Assembly (NCBI GenBank): GCA_963746845.1
Contig: CAVVCZ010000005.1
Coordinates: forward strand, 224,001-288,000
Reading direction: 5' to 3'
DNA length: 64,000 nucleotides
DNA from: an uncultured Chloroflexia bacterium
GTDB taxonomy: Bacteria; Chloroflexota; Limnocylindria; Limnocylindrales; CSP1-4
Positions within the stretch are counted from its first letter, which is position 1, and each line of letters begins with the position of its first letter. The notes below the pieces were generated by a model, which was not told where the DNA came from, did no database searches, and worked only from the letters and a program-made list of their open reading frames with translations. Both the position numbers and the translations under genes were made by a program. Of the stretch, positions 7,333-63,456 are shown piece after piece.

Positions 7333-7423
7333 CGGTCCCTGCCTGCCCTCATGTGTTCGCCGTCGCTCCTCGTCAGAGCGGCGCTCCCCTCTCCGCCGCG
7401 CTGTCGTCATCCGGTCGCCGGCC

Positions 7424-7455
7424 AACAAAAAGACCCTCGCCACCCGGCGAGGGTC
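7424..7455 (-). terminator. Attenuator terminator of ilvB leader
   Basis: Minus strand GACCCTCGCC-GGGT-GGCGAGGGTC followed by TTTTTGTT, 27 nt after the leader peptide stop. Confidence 0.88.
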
Positions 7456-7482
7456 CCGTTGGTCTGCGGTGGTTCGCTGCGC

Positions 7483-7626
7483 CTAGCGCCCGTCCCTCCG
7501 TGTTCCTCCGTTCTCCCGCCGGGAGCCGGTAATGAGGAGGCCGACGAGGCCGTCAAGACCGGCAAGGAGGAAGCGAAGAAGACCAAGGAGCGAACCGTCG
7601 TTGAGACCCGAATCATCGAGCGGCAT
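7483..7626 (-). CDS. Putative Leu-rich attenuator leader peptide (47 aa)
   Basis: MPLDDSGLNDGSLLGLLRFLLAGLDGLVGLLITGSRRENGGTRRDGR: 12 Leu (5 CTT), Val, Ile(ATT); lies between promoter and terminator upstream of ilvB; start could be GTG 7653. Confidence 0.7.
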   Translation of the reverse strand: MPLDDSGLNDGSLLGLLRFLLAGLDGLVGLLITGSRRENGGTRRDGR

Positions 7627-7742
7627 GTGGACGCGCCGACCATCCGTCGTCACGACGACGGCGACATGGCGACGATTCCGGCCATCGAACAGACCCAACG
7701 CGGTCTCCCGAACGCGGCCCGGTCGACCCGGGCGGTTTGCGC

Positions 7743-7771
7743 AGTCTACGAGGCGCCCGGTGATCATGCAA
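7743..7771 (-). promoter_or_regulatory. Sigma70-type promoter for ilv-leu leader
   Basis: TTGCAT-N17-TAGACT on minus strand. Confidence 0.65.
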
Positions 7772-7829
7772 CCACCCGGACCCCACGTGAGTGCTCGTGC
7801 CGTCACGAACCCCGATCGCCGGGAACTGA

Positions 7830-7857
7830 CGAGACCGCCGGTCGCCCGACGGTCTCG
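7830..7857 (-). terminator. Hairpin downstream of small peptide genes (probable terminator)
   Basis: CGAGACCGTCGG-GCGA-CCGGCGGTCTCG 12-bp stem (one G-U), GNRA loop; weak U tail. Confidence 0.55.
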
Positions 7858-7888
7858 CATGTTTCCGATCCCTCAGGGTGAGAGCCGG

Positions 7889-7993
7889 TCACAACTTCCA
7901 GCGCTGTCCCGCCTCGAGCACGAGAGCGGAGCTTGCGATGGCGGACACGACCATCAGAACTCGAAAGGCCTGAGCCTTCAGCATCCGAGTCAT
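7889..7993 (-). CDS. Small signal-peptide-like protein P2 (34 aa, ends EAGQRWKL)
   Basis: Manual translation MTRMLKAQAFRVLMVVSAIASSALVLEAGQRWKL; starts 4 nt after P1 stop; paralog at 63358-63456 with synonymous-only differences over 13 codons. Confidence 0.82.
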   Translation of the reverse strand: MTRMLKAQAFRVLMVVSAIASSALVLEAGQRWKL

Positions 7994-7997
7994 CTGG

Positions 7998-8087
7998 TCA
8001 ATACCAGCGCAGGCCGGCGCCGATCGTCAGGGCCAGCGACGCCACGAGCATCACTGCCCATGTGAGGCGCACCAGGTTGCCCTTCAC
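7998..8087 (-). CDS. Small signal-peptide-like protein P1 (29 aa, ends GAGLRWY)
   Basis: GTG 8087 preceded by SD GGAAGGAG; MKGNLVRLTWAVMLVASLALTIGAGLRWY; directly downstream of riboswitch; shares AG-x-RW tail with P2/P3. Confidence 0.8.
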   Translation of the reverse strand: MKGNLVRLTWAVMLVASLALTIGAGLRWY

Positions 8088-8123
8088 ATTCGACTCCTTC
8101 CGAGTCTGTCGAGGTCGTCGGCC

Positions 8124-8197
8124 CCTGGCAACCGGGCGGTCTTCCGGAGAAGATCCCTGGCTTTGCGTCCCCGCCTCGCGACGGGTTTGCCCTGGAC
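8124..8197 (-). ncRNA. Cyclic di-GMP-I (GEMM) riboswitch aptamer
   Basis: CAGGGCAAACCCGTC-GCGA-GGCGGGGACGCAAAGCCAGGGATCT...AGACCGCCCGGTTGCC matches GEMM hallmarks GGCAAACC / GNRA loop / GGACGCAAAGCC / GGTTRCC. Confidence 0.92.
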
Positions 8198-8338
8198 AGT
8201 GAGCACGGCGGAGGGACACCCGTCCCTCGAACCCGACGATGGGCGGTTCGTCACCCCGTGGACACGGGACGAAGGTCCCGGCCCGCCTCGACGGGTGGGG
8301 GAGTTGTCGGCGGGCACCGCGCCGCCGGGACGGCCCGA

Positions 8339-8899
8339 TCAGGACGCGGCGAGGTCCCCGGCGGCGGCCGCGCCCTGCCGGCCCCGGCGCATCACGACGA
8401 CGAGCAGGACGAACACGCCGGCCGCCAGCAGGACGTCACCCACGCTGAAGACGTTCGCGAAGGGGACCCAGCGCGGAAGGGCGAACCGGTCGATCAGGAC
8501 CGGCAGGTTCGGGCTGGCGACGACGGCGCTGTTCGAGTAGATGGTCGGCGCCGTCTTGCCGAGGCTCGCGAGTGCCTCGGGCGTCGCCGGCATGAACCCG
8601 CCGTTCGTGATGATCGCGGCCATGTTGCAGGCGGCACCGAGGACGATCAGGGGCAGCCCGGGCAGATCGAGGTTGCGGAGGACGGCAACGACCACGAGCA
8701 GGGTCGTCGCGACGTACAGGATCGGACCGGCGTCGCCGACCCGGGACGCGACCGCGTCCGAGAACAGCACGACCTGACCGAGGAAGCCGACGACGATCAG
8801 CGGCGCCCACCGGAAGCGGATCTCCGCGATCGCCGAAAGCCGGCCGCCCGTGGCCAGTCCGACCACGATGCCCGCGACGAGGGCGTACAGGATGAACAT
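8339..8899 (-). CDS. DUF5317-type membrane protein, copy 1 (186 aa)
   Basis: MFILYALVAGIVVGLATGGRL..., N-x6-NGGFMP, LIDRF, NVFSVGDVLL; ATG 8899; C-terminal part of the 1034-aa track ORF. Confidence 0.82.
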   Translation of the reverse strand: MFILYALVAGIVVGLATGGRLSAIAEIRFRWAPLIVVGFLGQVVLFSDAVASRVGDAGPILYVATTLLVVVAVLRNLDLPGLPLIVLGAACNMAAIITNGGFMPATPEALASLGKTAPTIYSNSAVVASPNLPVLIDRFALPRWVPFANVFSVGDVLLAAGVFVLLVVVMRRGRQGAAAAGDLAAS

Positions 8900-8907
8900 C
8901 GTCCGTC

Positions 8908-11601
8908 CTAGCTCGCCGGCTGGATCGCGGTCCGGCGGGGCGCCGGCTCCGGGCGGACGGCGCCCGGCTTCGACCACAGGGCCGCGGCGATCGTCGGGCC
9001 GTCGGCGGGGCGGGCGAAGTAGTAGCCCTGGCCCAGCTCGCAGCCGAGGTCGCGCAGCGCGGTGAGCTGGCCCTCGTCCTCGATCCCCTCGGCCACGACC
9101 TGGAGGTTGAGCGTCCGGCCGAGGGCGATGATCGCCCGCGCGAACGCCCACTCGTCCGACGATGCCTCGGCGCTGCCGATGAACTCGCGGGCGATCTTCA
9201 GGATGTCGACCTGGAACCGGCGCAGGTAACCGAGCGACGAGTACCCGGTCCCGAAGTCGTCGATCGCGATCCGGATCCCGAGCGCCCGCAGGGCCTGCAG
9301 GCGGGCGATCGTCGTGTGCGTGTCGTGGAACATCGCCGACTCGGTCAGCTCGAGGATCAGGTCGGTCGCCGGGAAGCCCGTCTCGGTGAGGATCGACTCG
9401 ACGTCCTCGACGAACGTCGGCTGCTGGAGCTGGGCGGCGGACAGGTTGACGGACAGGGCGATCCGCTCCGTTCGCCGGTCCCGCCACGACTCGACCTCGC
9501 GGCAGCTCTCGTGGAGCATCCACCGGCCGAGGGCGAGGATCGTCCCGTTCTCCTCGGCGAGGCGGATGAACTCGTCCGGGCGGAGGATCCCGCGGGTCGG
9601 GTGGCGCCATCGGACGAGGGCCTCGACGCCGTACGTCGCCCCGGTCGCGAGCGTGACGATCGGCTGGAAGTGGGCGAGGAGCTCGCCGCGGCCGATGCTC
9701 TTCGTCAGCTCGGACGCGAGCGCATGTCGCTCGACGAGGGCGGCATGCATCGTCGACTCGAACACGGCATAGCGGTTCTTGCCGGCCGCTTTCGCGGTGT
9801 ACATCGCGACGTCGGCGTTGCGCAGCAGCTCGTCGGCCCGCTCGCTCTCCGCGCCGGCCCGGGCGGCGGCGACGCCGATGCTCGCGGCGATCGAGATCTC
9901 CTGCCCGTCGATCTGGAGCGGCGCCTGGAGCGCCTCGAGGATCCGCCGGCAGACTGCGATGCTCTCGGACAGGTCGGCCGTGTCCTCGAGGAGGATCGCG
10001 AATTCGTCGCCGCCGAGCCGCGCCGCGAGGTCGGTGGCCCGGACGCAGCCGCGGACGCGATCCCCGACGGCGATCAGGAGCCGGTCGCCGGCCACGTGTC
10101 CGAGCGTGTCGTTGACCACCTTGAAGTCGTCGAGGTCGATGAACAGGACGACGGGCCGGCGGATACCGCTGTCGGCCAGGATCCGACCATCCACCTGCTC
10201 GACGAACAGGCTCCGGTTCGCGAGCCCGGTCAGCGGGTCGTGATAGGCCTGGAACCGGAGCTGCTCCTTGAGCCGCGACAGCTCGGCCAGCGACTGCTCC
10301 AGCTGACCGTTCTCCAGGGCGACCGCGGCCTGGTTCGCGAGCGTCTCGAGCAGCCGCAGGTCGTCGTCGGTGAAGACCGTCCCCTCGGTCAGGCGGTTGC
10401 CGACGAGCATCGAGCCGATCAGGGTGGACTCGCCGCGGAGCGGGGCGACCATCGCCTGGCGCAGGGTCGCCCGCTCCGGTTCGAACGGCGACGGGCTGAA
10501 GAAGAACGCGTGCGGCTCGTTCCGGATCCGGCGGGCGATCGGATCGTCCGGCGTGAACGGCACCGGGACCATGGCCGTCGCGGGCGCGCCGTCGATGCTC
10601 GTCGTCCGGAGCGCGTCCTCGCCGGGGATCCGCGGATGGAGCAGCACCTCGGCGCGCTCGGCGCGGAACATCTCGCGGGCGTGGTCGAGCAGGGCGACGA
10701 TCGCCGAGTCGAGCTCCGGCGAGTGCTGGAGGATCCGCCCGGACTGGTACAGGAACTCGAGCCGCTCGCCCTTCTCGCGCTCCGACAGATAGGCCCGGTA
10801 GGCGAGGAAGACCGTCACGAGCGGGACGATCAGGAGCCAGAGCAGGCCCGGGTCGAGCCACAGGATCGACACGGCCAGGAGCGCCAGGCTCGTGTTGGCG
10901 ACGGCGACGAGGCCGCCGAACTGGATCATCTGTGGCAGCTTCTGGAACTGCGGCGCGCCGCCCGACAGCGAGATCGCCGTGGCGATCGTCACCGCCGACA
11001 GCACGGTCGTCGTCAGCGTCGCGGCGAACGCCGCCACCCAGTCCGCAGCGCTGGGCGTCCCCTCCAGGTTCGCGATCAGGTGGAACACGACGAGCGCGGC
11101 GGTCGCGCCCAGCCCGAAGTTGGTCACGTTGAACGCGAACTTCAGGGGAGGCTGGCGGAACCAGGCAAGCGCCACGGCGGACCCGATCAGGATCACGGCG
11201 AGGATGTAGTCGTGCGGACTGAGGAGGAACAGCCCGATGACGGCCGGGAACTCGCTCAGCGAGAAGCTGTGGGCCTCGCGCCGGAAGTGGACGTCGATGA
11301 CCTTCAGCTCGGCCAGGCAGAAGCCCGCAGCGATCAGGGGCCACGGGAAGTCGATCGGGACGAGGGAGACGTGCGGCCGCGGCTCGATGACCAGGATGTC
11401 GAGGAGGACGGCGACCAGGGCGAGCGAGGCCGTGAAGGCCCACACCCGGAGCGCGGGCGAGCCGACACCGACGCGCAGCCGCTCGAGGCTGCGCCCGCCG
11501 GCGGCGACCATGTCCTGTTCGAGATCGTCCTTCGCTCGGACCGTCGCCGGGCGTCCTGGCGGATTCCCGCCCACGCGCGCCTCCATTCCGTCCCGTGGCA
11601 C
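8908..11601 (-). CDS. Multi-TM sensor + GAF + diguanylate cyclase (GGDEF) + EAL phosphodiesterase
   Basis: ~7 hydrophobic segments with LKFAFN motif, GAF (LANQAAVALEN), HDPLTGLANR, RATD I-site, GGDEF, VEALVRW, DDFGTGYSS, EGIE, GQGYY; start may be 11586 or 11511. Confidence 0.93.
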   Translation of the reverse strand: MPRDGMEARVGGNPPGRPATVRAKDDLEQDMVAAGGRSLERLRVGVGSPALRVWAFTASLALVAVLLDILVIEPRPHVSLVPIDFPWPLIAAGFCLAELKVIDVHFRREAHSFSLSEFPAVIGLFLLSPHDYILAVILIGSAVALAWFRQPPLKFAFNVTNFGLGATAALVVFHLIANLEGTPSAADWVAAFAATLTTTVLSAVTIATAISLSGGAPQFQKLPQMIQFGGLVAVANTSLALLAVSILWLDPGLLWLLIVPLVTVFLAYRAYLSEREKGERLEFLYQSGRILQHSPELDSAIVALLDHAREMFRAERAEVLLHPRIPGEDALRTTSIDGAPATAMVPVPFTPDDPIARRIRNEPHAFFFSPSPFEPERATLRQAMVAPLRGESTLIGSMLVGNRLTEGTVFTDDDLRLLETLANQAAVALENGQLEQSLAELSRLKEQLRFQAYHDPLTGLANRSLFVEQVDGRILADSGIRRPVVLFIDLDDFKVVNDTLGHVAGDRLLIAVGDRVRGCVRATDLAARLGGDEFAILLEDTADLSESIAVCRRILEALQAPLQIDGQEISIAASIGVAAARAGAESERADELLRNADVAMYTAKAAGKNRYAVFESTMHAALVERHALASELTKSIGRGELLAHFQPIVTLATGATYGVEALVRWRHPTRGILRPDEFIRLAEENGTILALGRWMLHESCREVESWRDRRTERIALSVNLSAAQLQQPTFVEDVESILTETGFPATDLILELTESAMFHDTHTTIARLQALRALGIRIAIDDFGTGYSSLGYLRRFQVDILKIAREFIGSAEASSDEWAFARAIIALGRTLNLQVVAEGIEDEGQLTALRDLGCELGQGYYFARPADGPTIAAALWSKPGAVRPEPAPRRTAIQPAS

Positions 11602-11677
11602 CTGTTGTACGCGTCGAACCGACGATCGGGGCGTAGGTCCGAGGTACCGCGGCGCGCAGGACGAATCGCGCGGACGG

Positions 11678-12244
11678 TCAGGAAGTTGGCGCGTCCGCGG
11701 GTCGGTCCGGGGTCCCGTCGGCGCGCCGCTCCCGGCGCATCGCCGCGGCGATCGCGACAGCGACCCCGACCCCGATCAGCACGTCGCCGACGCTGAAGAC
11801 GTTGGCCATCGGCAGCCACGCGGGCAGCGCGAAGACGTCGGTCAGCGGCTCGAGGGCTGGTCGTTCGACCACGACGCTGTTCGTGTTCGGGCCGACGCCC
11901 ATTCCGAGGGTCGCCAGCGCGGCCGGGCTGGCGGGCATCGCTCCGCCGTTCGCGAGGATGGCCGCGAGGTTGAGGCCGGCCCCGACCGCGATCAGCGGGA
12001 CGCCGGTGATCCCGAGGTTGGCGAGGACGACGATCCCGACGAGGGCGGTCGACCCGACGTAGATGGCCCGTGCGACGTCCGGGGCGAGGCCGTCCGCCAG
12101 CGGTGAGAAGAGGACGAGCTGGATCGCCAGGGCGACGAAGACAAGTGGGCCGAGCCGGAAGTGGACCTCAGCCAGCCGCTCGAGGCGACCGCCGAGAAGC
12201 AGCCCGACGACGATCCCGGCGATGAGCCCATAGAGGATGAACAC
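11678..12244 (-). CDS. DUF5317-type membrane protein, copy 2 (188 aa)
   Basis: GTG start VFILYGLIAGIVVGLLLGGRL..., NGGAMP, LTDVF, NVFSVGDVLI; clear paralog of 8339-8899. Confidence 0.82.
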   Translation of the reverse strand: MFILYGLIAGIVVGLLLGGRLERLAEVHFRLGPLVFVALAIQLVLFSPLADGLAPDVARAIYVGSTALVGIVVLANLGITGVPLIAVGAGLNLAAILANGGAMPASPAALATLGMGVGPNTNSVVVERPALEPLTDVFALPAWLPMANVFSVGDVLIGVGVAVAIAAAMRRERRADGTPDRPADAPTS

Positions 12245-63357: not shown

Positions 63358-63456
63358 ATGCAGAAGGTCAAGTCGCTGGGGTTCAGGATCGTATTGGTCC
63401 TGTCCGCGCTTGCCAGCTCGGCACTCGTGCTCGAAGCCGGCCAGCGCTGGCGCTGA
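63358..63456 (+). CDS. Small signal-peptide-like protein P3 (32 aa, ends EAGQRWR)
   Basis: SD GAAGGAGG; MQKVKSLGFRIVLVLSALASSALVLEAGQRWR; paralog of 7889-7993. Confidence 0.82.
   Translation: MQKVKSLGFRIVLVLSALASSALVLEAGQRWR

What the first reader, a model, noticed from the sequence alone, without database searches (positions are those of the whole stretch)
7830..12244. Candidate peptide-signal / c-di-GMP feedback circuit: DUF5317 x2 + membrane GGDEF-EAL + GEMM riboswitch + AG-x-RW micropeptides
Seen: all on the minus strand in the order DUF5317(2), TM-GAF-GGDEF-EAL, DUF5317(1), c-di-GMP-I riboswitch, 29-aa peptide, 34-aa peptide, hairpin. There are two putative processing proteins and two peptides, each peptide a basic n-region plus hydrophobic helix plus AG-x-RW tail. 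Established: GEMM riboswitches bind c-di-GMP; GGDEF/EAL make and break it; DUF5317 has no function known to me. Inference: the peptides are membrane-inserted precursors whose tail is released by DUF5317 and sensed by the multi-TM domain of the cyclase/PDE. The riboswitch would feed c-di-GMP back onto precursor expression, giving an agr-like loop that outputs to c-di-GMP rather than a two-component system.
Basis: partly seen in the sequence, partly recalled or inferred. Interest (0 to 1): 0.95.

Follow-up and report, generated by a model that had tools for sequence, protein, structure and literature searches.

The report
c-di-GMP riboswitch-controlled membrane micropeptide pair
A c-di-GMP-sensing riboswitch drives two tiny conserved membrane peptides beside a membrane protein of unknown function and a c-di-GMP-making/breaking enzyme, a conserved signalling module in an uncultured group of Chloroflexota.

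Summary
On the minus strand lie DUF5317 (12244-11678), TM-GAF-GGDEF-EAL (about 11511-8908), DUF5317 (8899-8339), a c-di-GMP-I riboswitch (8200-8123), a 29-aa ORF (8087-7998), a 34-aa ORF (7993-7889) and a stable hairpin (7858-7829).

The genome belongs to the Limnocylindria (Chloroflexota). The module is conserved there. Of 78 usable DUF5317 loci, 40 carry the riboswitch 97-323 nt downstream, and all 40 have peptide A. Both peptides evolve as coding sequence: invariant residues are written with up to four codons.

The core pair is DUF5317 plus peptide. Ten loci keep a peptide with no riboswitch and no enzyme nearby. DUF5317 is tied to c-di-GMP enzymes by operon and by a DUF5317-GAF-GGDEF fusion.

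Best reading: riboswitch-controlled small membrane partners of DUF5317, giving c-di-GMP feedback or output. Release of a tail, a DUF5317 protease and sensing by the cyclase's TM domain are unsupported. The sensing claim is partly contradicted.

The closest known case is the C. difficile family of riboswitch-controlled small membrane proteins (2026). I rate this a new variant of a known kind.

The parts
11678..12244 (-). DUF5317 paralogue 2 (188 aa, GTG start 12244)
   Evidence: Pfam PF17248 1.4e-24; start read
8908..11511 (-). Membrane N-terminal domain (about 265 aa, no family hit) - GAF - GGDEF - EAL enzyme. Start is ATG 11511 or GTG 11601. GGDEF, RxxD, EAL and DDFGTG motifs read intact.
   Evidence: Pfam EAL 7.9e-77, GGDEF 1.6e-43, GAF_3 4.2e-11; NCBIfam partial matches; sequence; N-domain not related to DUF5317 (hhalign probability 0.1)
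8339..8899 (-). DUF5317 paralogue 1 (186 aa), ATG 9 nt after the enzyme's stop
   Evidence: Pfam 2.3e-26; invariant N76, P104, D137, S152, G154, D155, G161 in 71 diverse homologues
8123..8200 (-). c-di-GMP-I (GEMM-I) riboswitch aptamer
   Evidence: RF03167 63.2 bits; RF01051 60.5 bits; compensatory changes in the second hairpin
8088..8122 (-). 35-nt linker with Shine-Dalgarno GGAAGGAG (8100-8093) inside a local GACUC/GAGUC hairpin. Too short for a terminator, so probably a translational expression platform.
   Evidence: (34 loci, linker 28-41 nt, SD in all)
7998..8087 (-). Micropeptide A, 29 aa, GTG start: basic N-end, TM helix, G-A-G-x-R-W end
   Evidence: 64 distinct orthologues; coding signature; RNA-library contig 8011-8161
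7889..7993 (-). Micropeptide B, 34 aa, ATG 4 nt after A's stop: basic N-end, TM helix, E-A-G-Q-R-W end
   Evidence: 37 distinct TM-type orthologues; coding signature
7829..7858 (-). Conserved 13-bp GC-rich hairpin with no U-run, probable end of the cassette
   Evidence: z -3.04; the same stem sequence stands after the peptides in relatives
63358..63456 (+). Third family member, a B-like 32-aa ORF with AAGGAGG upstream. No riboswitch and no DUF5317 beside it.

Best explanation
A canonical c-di-GMP-I riboswitch controls, probably at the level of translation, a two-gene cassette. The cassette encodes two micropeptides of a previously unnamed family. Each has a short basic N-end, one membrane helix rich in small residues, and a C-terminal [G/E]-A-G-x-[R/K]-W motif.

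The cassette's constant genomic partner is DUF5317, a five-helix membrane protein. Its invariant polar residues (N99-G-G-x-M-P, D137, S-x-G-D155) lie, by hydropathy and the positive-inside rule, at the outer face.

DUF5317 is itself coupled to c-di-GMP turnover enzymes. It sits in operons with TM-GAF-GGDEF-EAL or HD-GYP genes, and a DUF5317-GAF-GGDEF fusion exists.

Most likely the peptides stay intact in the membrane and act as small subunits or modulators of DUF5317, and through it of the neighbouring cyclase/phosphodiesterase. The cellular c-di-GMP level would then set the amount of a modulator of its own enzyme complex (feedback), or of a DUF5317-based membrane output device.

Shown: the anatomy, its conservation, the coding signature and the genetic couplings. 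Inferred: membrane insertion, binding to DUF5317, any effect on the enzyme, and the sign of the riboswitch (weak lean to c-di-GMP turning translation on).
For: Riboswitch
- The calls are in 2 and 15.
- All 24 aligned aptamers read GACGCAAAGCC where the GGC-variant consensus has G.
- The second hairpin has 5-12 sequences with changes on both sides that keep the pair.

Conservation
- By comparing coordinates, at least 19 of 25 genomes of the genus show DUF5317 followed by the riboswitch.
- In the class sample the pairing is seen in families f1 and f4.
- Among 80 named loci, 40 have the riboswitch 97-323 nt downstream (median 172) on the same strand.
- Peptide A is present in 40 of those 40: 37 by pattern and 3 by eye.

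Coding signature
- Peptide A: pairwise difference by codon position 0.329/0.174/0.413, GC3 0.876.
- Invariant A24 and G25 each use 4 codons and R27 uses 5.
- Peptide B: 0.262/0.155/0.455. Its invariant Ala, Gly and first Arg each use 4 codons.

Core pair
- 10 of 38 riboswitch-less loci still have a peptide directly after DUF5317, with no enzyme within 3.5 kb.
- The control stretches gave 0, 2 and 0 of 78.

DUF5317 and c-di-GMP enzymes
- In 19 of 20 class loci it is adjacent to GGDEF-EAL or HD-GYP.
- In 13 of 20 loci from other Chloroflexota classes an HD-GYP gene lies within about 2 kb. Those genomes hold only 2-12 HD_5 genes each.
- P0147 is a DUF5317-GAF-GGDEF fusion.

Lead for direct contact
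- In the sister loci L096 and L142, both peptide tails changed G to W at the same motif position.
- Their DUF5317 carries I96V, at a position that is I in all 38 other rows, and A86I.

Expression platform
- Codons 2-8 of A have synonymous entropy 0-0.66, against 1.18-2.01 at the degenerate codons 9-27, with one exception (codon 13, Ala, 0.21).
- These codons can pair with the aptamer's 5' CGUCCAGG.

RNA library
- One contig with a single difference bridges the aptamer and peptide A.
Against: - No binding, folding or complex test could be run. Adjacency alone does not show contact.
- In many loci peptide B is replaced by a hydrophilic B' of about 20-33 aa that keeps only the (V/I)-x-A-G-H-R-W end. 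A peptide without a helix or signal sequence cannot easily reach an outer-face site, so either my topology or the 'intact membrane subunit' picture is incomplete.
- 23 of 78 DUF5317 loci have no peptide, riboswitch or enzyme nearby.
- G000 has two B-like genes away from any DUF5317.
- Outside the class, DUF5317 loci showed no such peptide (0 convincing in 20 loci). The peptide is therefore not needed for DUF5317 function in general.
- The G-to-W co-change is a single event on one branch.
- The alternative helix has no change on both sides. Its duplex energy is only moderately better than shuffles (-11.2 against -8.2). Modelled accessibility changes are small.
- The RNA-library contigs may derive from DNA, and their depth is 2-8.
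- Relatives are kin, so the counts are not independent.
Confidence: 0.5

Rival explanations
1. Peptide-signal loop. The micropeptides are precursors. A membrane enzyme, DUF5317, cuts or exports them. The conserved C-terminal piece is the signal and is sensed at the membrane, changing c-di-GMP synthesis or breakdown.
For: - The most conserved part of B is its last roughly 10 residues. B' variants keep only that part on a hydrophilic body.
- DUF5317 has two invariant Asp and an S-x-G-D motif at a helix start, and is of AgrB-like size (the AgrB size is recalled).
- DUF5317 is fused to, or lies next to, MFS_3 exporter-type proteins in some loci.
- The precursor shape of a basic N-end, a hydrophobic stretch and a conserved C-end resembles SHP/ComS precursors (recalled).
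Against: - Peptide A is conserved along the whole helix.
- The part beyond the helix is 3-7 residues.
- Neither A nor B has a Cys, so agr-type chemistry is not possible.
- No receptor is identified. The cyclase's TM domain is absent from HD-GYP loci and orphan loci that keep the peptides.
- The module is a syntenic core feature of most genomes, with little of the allelic diversification usual for pheromones.
- DUF5317 has no detectable relation to any solved protease.
Confidence: 0.17
2. Output device rather than feedback. DUF5317 plus the peptides form a c-di-GMP-controlled membrane channel, transporter or envelope-modifying unit. The neighbouring enzymes only supply the local signal.
For: - DUF5317-MFS_3 fusions occur in both orders.
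- Orphan DUF5317-peptide pairs exist without enzymes.
- Other riboswitches of this genome precede secreted or surface proteins and another micropeptide.
- In C. difficile the riboswitch-controlled small membrane proteins are effectors of sporulation, not regulators of c-di-GMP enzymes (PMC13724677; abstract and sections 7 and 14 read).
Against: - The DUF5317-GAF-GGDEF fusion and the tight operon with the enzyme (9-nt spacing) suggest DUF5317 acts on or with the enzyme.
- No substrate or transport family signature was found in DUF5317.
Confidence: 0.23
3. Membrane-active peptides: a type-I-toxin-like or leaderless two-peptide-bacteriocin-like pair, with DUF5317 as immunity or export protein.
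For: - Size (29-34 aa), one hydrophobic helix, a positive net charge and two adjacent peptide genes beside a small polytopic membrane protein.
Against: - Strict motif conservation and synteny across two families, which is unlike bacteriocin loci.
- Hydrophilic B' variants.
- No antisense RNA or dedicated ABC exporter seen within the loci examined.
- Peptide paralogues occur without DUF5317 in the same genome, which would be lethal if DUF5317 were a needed immunity protein.
Confidence: 0.06
4. cis-acting leader ORFs: branched-chain amino-acid attenuation of the downstream ilvB, or mere parts of the riboswitch expression platform with no peptide function.
For: - ilvB lies downstream in the window and in many relatives.
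- The peptides are rich in Leu and Val.
- The first 8 codons of A are constrained at the RNA level.
Against: - ilvB has its own conserved Leu/Val-rich leader ORF, with coding periodicity at 7531-7680, ending at 7483 just before a terminator with a U-run at 7457-7430.
- A stable hairpin separates the cassette from it.
- The family-f4 loci checked (L064-L072) show no ilvB in the about 1.5 kb fetched downstream, and in some other loci it lies 3.5-4.8 kb away.
- Invariant residues are encoded by several codons.
Confidence: 0.03

Closest known systems
[quoted passage not shown]
   Same: Class I c-di-GMP riboswitch directly upstream of very small hydrophobic or membrane proteins. Multicopy family that also has riboswitch-independent paralogues. 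Previously unannotated or 'hypothetical'. Molecular partner unknown.
   Different: - 58 aa there, against 29-34 aa here.
- The paper reports no homologues outside C. difficile. I could not compare sequences because their sequences are not in the text I read and supplements are closed.
- Control there is by premature transcription termination, with c-di-GMP repressing. Here the 28-41-nt linker leaves no room for a terminator, so control is probably translational, and its sign is open.
- Here the genes are bicistronic, share a C-terminal A-G-x-R-W motif, and are locked to DUF5317 and to c-di-GMP enzymes.
- The C. difficile link is to sporulation; these Limnocylindria are not known to me to sporulate (recalled, not checked).
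Small membrane-protein modulators of sensor enzymes, e.g. MgrB or SafA on PhoQ (recalled, not checked here)
   Same: A single-helix peptide of about 30-65 aa whose synthesis is controlled by the pathway it modulates, giving feedback.
   Different: Those act on histidine kinases and are transcriptionally controlled. Here the control element is a riboswitch, the presumed partner is DUF5317 or a c-di-GMP enzyme, and binding is not shown.
agr (AgrD/AgrB) and SHP/ComS-Rgg peptide signalling (recalled)
   Same: Short precursors with a basic N-end, a hydrophobic stretch and a conserved C-terminal part, beside a small polytopic membrane protein.
   Different: No Cys or thiolactone chemistry, no identified receptor or regulator, no evidence of cleavage or export. 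The output would be c-di-GMP rather than a two-component or Rgg regulator.
GEMM-I / c-di-GMP-I riboswitch (Rfam RF01051, and variant model RF03167)
   Same: Scores above both cut-offs, both hairpins present, and the conserved core is identical in 24 aligned copies.
   Different: The peptide-linked copies form a tight subclass with UCCAGG in the 5' junction, where the other three copies in this genome have A-rich junctions. That stretch is complementary to the start of the peptide A ORF.

Membership tests
c-di-GMP-I riboswitch (RF01051, clan CL00126) | Covariance-model score above the curated cut-off | tested here: met
   RF01051 60.5 bits against 35; RF03167 63.2 against 59
c-di-GMP-I riboswitch (RF01051, clan CL00126) | Two hairpins supported by compensatory changes | tested here: met
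   Pairs 55/83, 58/80 and 59/79 have 5, 12 and 6 sequences changed on both sides with the pair kept; 27 sequences
c-di-GMP-I riboswitch (RF01051, clan CL00126) | Canonical ligand-contact nucleotide (A in GACGCAAAGCC) rather than the G of the GGC variant. That this is the A47 position is recalled. | tested here: met
   A in 24 of 24 aligned copies; the GGC consensus shows G there
c-di-GMP-I riboswitch (RF01051, clan CL00126) | Binds c-di-GMP and changes expression | not testable with these tools
   Needs in-line probing and reporter assays
DUF5317 (PF17248) | Profile score above the cut-off (25 bits) | tested here: met
   93.1 and 87.2 bits; a third copy fused to an MFS-type protein
GGDEF-EAL bifunctional c-di-GMP enzyme | GGDEF and EAL domains with catalytic motifs | tested here: met
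   Pfam. GGDEF preceded by RATD, plus EAL, DDFGTG and EGIED, read in the translation. Activity not testable.
CD1980.2-type riboswitch-controlled small membrane proteins (C. difficile) | Sequence similarity to the 58-aa family | not tested
   Their sequences were not in the sections read and supplements are closed. The paper states there are no homologues outside C. difficile (section 7).
CD1980.2-type riboswitch-controlled small membrane proteins (C. difficile) | Class I c-di-GMP riboswitch immediately upstream of a small hydrophobic protein gene | tested here: met
agr-type autoinducing peptide system | Precursor with a Cys (or Ser) for the thiolactone ring, an AgrB-family peptidase, and an AgrC/AgrA receptor pair | tested here: not met
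   No Cys in A or B. DUF5317 gave no hit other than PF17248. No kinase/regulator pair was seen among the domains mapped in the loci, though that mapping used only my own queries.
GxGD-type intramembrane aspartyl protease | Two catalytic Asp in adjacent membrane helices (YD ... GxGD) and the protease fold | tested here: inconclusive
   Invariant D137 and S-x-G-D155 exist. There is no sequence relation to any solved chain (best E 0.14, light-harvesting protein). The fold could not be predicted.

The most novel reading that the evidence does not exclude
DUF5317 is a new membrane peptidase or exporter that matures the A-G-x-R-W micropeptides into an extracellular or intramembrane signal. That signal is read back by DUF5317-coupled c-di-GMP enzymes. 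With the riboswitch, this would close a peptide/second-messenger loop: quorum-type signalling whose output is c-di-GMP, with no two-component system or transcription factor involved.
Probability: 0.12. Interest if true: 0.9.

Novelty: new variant of a known kind. Interest (0 to 1): 0.66.

Why it matters
- It gives a first functional context to DUF5317. The family has 2,769 representative clusters at E<=0.001, and no paper in the searched library mentions it. Here it appears as a membrane module of c-di-GMP signalling.
- It defines an abundant, unnamed micropeptide family. The public sets call its members 'hypothetical protein', and the ESM Atlas holds look-alike clusters of 434, 52 and 64 members.
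- It is a second, independent case, in a distant phylum, of c-di-GMP riboswitches driving tiny membrane proteins. The C. difficile finding may therefore reflect a general design.
- Here the likely partner (DUF5317) and the enzyme sit next door. That makes the open question of what such small proteins bind directly testable in a heterologous host.

Tried and rejected
Structure, complex and fold
- Fold of DUF5317 and a DUF5317 + A + B complex could not be done.
- A profile of 71 DUF5317 sequences against PDB sequences gave only chance-level hits, best E 0.14.
- The ESM Atlas gave nothing outside PF17248.
- The enzyme's N-terminal membrane domain is not related to DUF5317 (hhalign probability 0.1). 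It has no Pfam or NCBIfam family.

Database and literature searches
- NCBIfam and Pfam gave nothing for the peptides.
- 'DUF5317' gave 0 papers. 'Limnocylindria' plus 'c-di-GMP' gave 0. 'c-di-GMP-I-GGC' gave 3 papers, none about function; I read one passage of PMC12452182.
- Two further searches gave nothing closer than the C. difficile paper. I saw only the listings.

Outside the class
- In 20 DUF5317 loci of other Chloroflexota classes, no convincing motif peptide and no c-di-GMP-I riboswitch was found.
- I could not reach other phyla. The one genome-contig scan returned only the 80 closest loci, all Limnocylindria-like.

Other negative or weak results
- The promoter scan found nothing in 7400-8950, and the only terminator-like site is the ilvB attenuator.
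- MFE folding of the aptamer plus linker alone was uninformative, z +0.39.
- I guessed a compensatory change in the VKSTLARLSW clade for the aptamer/ORF helix. The computed duplexes did not bear it out: -8.0 and -9.4, no better than shuffles.
- RNA run X1 is contigs only. No contig lay on 8204-8940 (DUF5317) or 7668-7868. This says nothing about transcription.
- ilvB-leader reading: rejected, see the rivals.

Unpublished genomes
- G010 is counted in the tallies. G102, G122, G131, G140, G146 and G157 are counted in those.
- Sequences from G010 were among the loci scanned and listed. One G010 peptide was among the 37 B ORFs, and a G010 locus (L053) was among the blast hits and the 24 aligned sequences (the ilvB-leader side note).
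- No G010 sequence was among the 64 peptide A ORFs.
- No claim depends on them. Leaving them out changes those counts by at most one genome or one sequence each. None of their sequence is given here.

Full report
WHAT IS THERE

- DUF5317 paralogue 2 runs from GTG 12244 to 11678.
- A membrane-GAF-GGDEF-EAL protein runs from ATG 11511 (or GTG 11601) to 8908.
- DUF5317 paralogue 1 runs from ATG 8899, 9 nt after the enzyme's stop, to 8339 (Pfam; ORFs; starts).
- 139 nt further on is a riboswitch aptamer at 8200-8123.

Rfam's best model for the aptamer is the 'GGC' variant, RF03167, at 63.2 bits against a cut-off of 59. The canonical c-di-GMP-I model scores 60.5 bits against a cut-off of 35 at the same place. 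Where the variant consensus has G, this RNA reads GACGCAAAGCC, as do 23 other copies I aligned. I therefore treat it as an ordinary c-di-GMP-I aptamer. That this position is the ligand-stacking A47 is from memory.

A 35-nt linker carries GGAAGGAG 5 nt before a GTG. That GTG opens a 29-aa ORF (peptide A, 8087-7998). Four bases after its stop, an ATG opens a 34-aa ORF (peptide B, 7993-7889).

A 13-bp GC-rich hairpin follows at 7858-7829. The wider fold is -50.1 kcal/mol, z -3.04.

The names that public sources give to close DUF5317 homologues, and the record titles of the related loci, place the genome in the Limnocylindria, Chloroflexota.

IS IT REAL AND CONSERVED

Genus and class samples
- In the genus sample, DUF5317 and the riboswitch were each found in 23 of 24 other genomes.
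- By coordinates, at least 19 of the 25 genomes (G000 included) have the riboswitch 150-300 nt after a DUF5317 gene on the same strand.
- I could read 37 of the 55 riboswitch matches. Of those, 20 are followed by peptide A. These carry B (12 by pattern, 2 more by eye) or a short hydrophilic B' (5). Three further matches have a single hybrid peptide instead. The remaining 14 precede other genes.
- In a draw of 150 genomes of the class, the pairing recurs in two families, f1 and f4. I did not see it in family f3 (the table was cut, so this is a lower bound).
- I fetched 20 such loci. Every riboswitch is followed by peptide A or by one A/B-like peptide. In 19 of the 20, DUF5317 is adjacent to a c-di-GMP enzyme: the same membrane-GAF-GGDEF-EAL protein in 14, and an HD-GYP protein in 5.

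The 80 named loci
- A scan of one genome per species returned 80 named loci, all Limnocylindria-like.
- With a covariance model built from 24 copies, 40 loci have the riboswitch 97-323 nt (median 172) downstream of DUF5317. Four have it elsewhere in the locus, 34 have none, and 2 are cut by the contig end.
- A TM-type motif peptide lies within 900 nt downstream in 47 of 78 usable loci.
- The controls gave 0 of 78 on the opposite strand, 2 of 78 upstream and 0 of 78 two kilobases further on.
- The three riboswitch loci missed by the pattern have peptide A with a variant or longer end. Peptide A is therefore present in 40 of 40.
- The joint table (enzyme within 3.5 kb, riboswitch, peptide) reads: 36 with all three; 5 with enzyme only; 4 with riboswitch and peptide but no enzyme; 10 with peptide only; 23 with none.

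ARE THE PEPTIDES TRANSLATED

There is no direct proof, but the evolutionary signature is that of proteins.

- For 23 peptide A genes, pairwise differences by codon position are 0.329, 0.174 and 0.413, and GC3 is 0.876. Synonymous codon differences are 35% in frame, against 21% and 7% in the shifted frames. The sequences were picked by a pattern in that frame, which biases the motif columns.
- In 64 distinct A genes, invariant A24 and G25 are each written with four codons and R27 with five.
- For 37 B genes the figures are 0.262, 0.155 and 0.455. The invariant Ala, Gly and first Arg again use four codons each.
- All 34 linkers examined (28-41 nt) carry a Shine-Dalgarno sequence 5-9 nt before the GTG.
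- A freshwater metatranscriptome library holds a 151-nt contig with one difference that bridges the aptamer and peptide A (8161-8011). It also holds a 164-nt contig from a relative spanning the A-B junction. These are contigs of low depth and could stem from DNA, so this is only a hint.
- Public gene calls list the peptides as 'hypothetical protein'. The ESM Atlas holds look-alike clusters of 434, 52 and 64 members without any Pfam family.

THE PEPTIDE FAMILY

Peptide A (alignment A5, 43 sequences) has the consensus MKANLARFTxALALLASMALTLGAGMRWx. M1, A24, G25 and W28 are invariant. K2, L5, R7, L15, A16, A19 and R27 are nearly so.

Peptide B (A4, 35 sequences) has the consensus MxxxLKAQAFRVLLxLSALASSALVLEAGQRWx, with R11, A28, R31 and W32 invariant.

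In many lineages B is replaced by B', a hydrophilic peptide of about 20-33 residues that keeps only the (V/I)-x-(A/S)-G-H-R-W end.

G000 has two more B-like genes, at window 63358-63456 (+) and at G000:C5:300846-300947 (-). Neither has a riboswitch or a DUF5317 beside it. The first sits where relatives have an 'orphan' DUF5317 followed by such a peptide.

WHAT IS DUF5317

It is a protein of about 185 aa. From hydropathy and the positive-inside rule I read five helices with the N-end outside and the C-end inside. This is my own reading, not a tool result.

In 71 diverse homologues N76, P104, D137, S152, G154, D155 and G161 are invariant, and N99-G-G-x-M is nearly so. On my topology these cluster at the outer face.

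No solved structure is related by sequence, and no paper in the library names the family.

Its link to c-di-GMP enzymes goes beyond this class:
- In 20 loci from other Chloroflexota classes, 13 have an HD-GYP gene within about 2 kb. The four such genomes I checked (plus one genome of the window's own family) hold only 2-12 HD_5 genes each. By my rough estimate a random 8.5-kb stretch would hold one about 2% of the time.
- One representative, P0147, is a DUF5317-GAF-GGDEF fusion. Others are fused to MFS_3 transporters in either order.
- The third copy in G000 is such a fusion, and it follows an HD-GYP gene.

HOW IT PROBABLY WORKS

Because the linker is too short for a terminator, control is most likely translational.

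The first eight codons of A are almost frozen at synonymous sites: entropy 0-0.66, against 1.18-2.01 at the degenerate codons 9-27, with one exception (codon 13, Ala, 0.21). RNAalifold pairs codons 4-7 (CCUGGCGCG) with the aptamer's 5' junction (CGUCCAGG). That junction sequence is particular to the peptide-linked copies.

- Unconstrained folds average -57.0 kcal/mol, and folds with the aptamer enforced average -48.1 kcal/mol.
- Enforcing the aptamer raises the modelled accessibility of the start codon from 0.21 to 0.29. It raises that of the early ORF from 0.36 to 0.48. The Shine-Dalgarno sequence is unchanged.
- The duplex is only moderately better than shuffles, -11.2 against -8.2, and has no double changes.

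I lean to 'c-di-GMP opens translation', at perhaps 60%.

B probably follows by translational coupling. This is an inference from the 4-nt spacing.

The peptides would insert N-in and C-out, placing A-G-x-R-W at the outer interface. There the invariant Arg could meet D137 or D155 of DUF5317. This is inference.

One lead supports contact. In the sister loci L096 and L142, both tails carry W in place of the motif Gly. Their DUF5317 has I96V, at a position that is I in all 38 other rows, and A86I in helix 4. That is one evolutionary event, not two.

Whether the complex tunes the neighbouring enzyme (feedback) or is an output device cannot be decided here.

- The number of DUF5317 genes does not track the number of peptides.
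- The peptides persist beside HD-GYP enzymes and beside no enzyme at all. The cyclase's membrane domain therefore cannot be their general receptor.
- Peptide A is conserved over the whole helix.
- Cleavage and export are untested.
- The B' variants are the best argument that the tail alone carries function. They keep the signal-peptide reading alive.

COMPARISON AND NOVELTY

The nearest known case is the 2026 report of 58-aa membrane-associated proteins behind class I c-di-GMP riboswitches in C. difficile. There c-di-GMP represses them by premature termination, and they promote sporulation (PMC13724677; abstract and sections 7 and 14 read; supplements closed, so I could not compare sequences).

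The principle is therefore in print. The peptide family, the bicistronic layout, the probable translational platform overlapping the ORF, and the fixed coupling to DUF5317 and c-di-GMP enzymes are not in the papers I could search.

LIMITS

- Relatives are kin, so counts overstate independence.
- Nothing outside Chloroflexota could be examined.
- Seven unpublished genomes enter only the tallies, plus a few sequences in pooled analyses, as listed under Tried and rejected.

Noticed in passing
window 63358-63456 (+); G000:C5:300846-300947 (-): Two further B-like micropeptide genes (32 and 33 aa, ending E-A-G-Q-R-W-x) with good Shine-Dalgarno sequences, but no riboswitch and no DUF5317 beside them. 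The first lies where relatives have an orphan DUF5317 plus peptide, next to proline-dehydrogenase-like, DUF421-like and prolyl-oligopeptidase-like genes.
   Followed up: partly
G000:C4:727366-727463 (+) and downstream (L001); orthologue in L012: Another c-di-GMP-I riboswitch is followed by a different 31-aa hydrophobic ORF ending S-A-R-P-I/L, then a hairpin, then a lipoprotein-like gene. This is a second kind of riboswitch-led micropeptide in the same genome.
   Followed up: no
G000:C5:217386-217459 (-) and G000:C4:602085-602157 (-) (L003, L004): Two near-identical riboswitch copies with A-rich 5' junctions precede genes for proteins with an N-terminal membrane or signal segment. One of these has Pro/Thr/Ala repeats.
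   Followed up: no
window 7430-7770 (-): ilvB has its own long conserved leader. An ORF with clear coding periodicity (7531-7680), rich in Leu and Val, ends at 7483. Just after it lies a terminator-like hairpin with a U-run (7457-7430). This looks like a classical attenuator. The element travels with ilvB in relatives, not with the peptides.
   Followed up: partly
window 8001-8087 (-), codons 2-8 of peptide A: Synonymous sites of the first eight codons are almost invariant in 64 orthologues, while later codons vary freely. This implies an RNA-level constraint overlapping the ORF.
   Followed up: partly
L096 and L142 (peptides after the riboswitch; DUF5317 positions 86 and 96): Both peptide tails read A-W-M-R-W and S-W-H-R-W instead of A-G-x-R-W. 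The adjacent DUF5317 has I96V and A86I. The two loci are sisters in the DUF5317 tree (98/86).
   Followed up: yes
L007 (G000:C1:67965-71411): The third DUF5317 of the genome is the N-terminal part of a protein over 670 aa long with an MFS-type C-terminal part. It lies directly after an HD-GYP gene. The same fusion is widespread in the class (open frames of 600-790 aa).
   Followed up: partly
L166:6575-6658 (-): In another Chloroflexota class, a c-di-GMP-II-GAG-type hit (40.9 bits, cut-off 40) lies about 1.3 kb upstream of an HD-GYP-DUF5317 gene pair on the same strand.
   Followed up: no
L085, L090, L091, L092, L114, L154, L163; G006:C391; G021:C73: The riboswitch-peptide cassette is often duplicated in tandem. 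Two riboswitches lie 0.5-1.3 kb apart (3.2 kb in L154, with another gene between), each with its own peptide(s). In some loci each sits behind its own DUF5317 copy.
   Followed up: partly
L086, L104, L153 (record titles): Three contigs with a Limnocylindria-type module are filed under Verrucomicrobiia or Binatia bins. In the DUF5317 tree, L086 sits inside Chloroflexota rows. This suggests binning errors rather than transfer.
   Followed up: no
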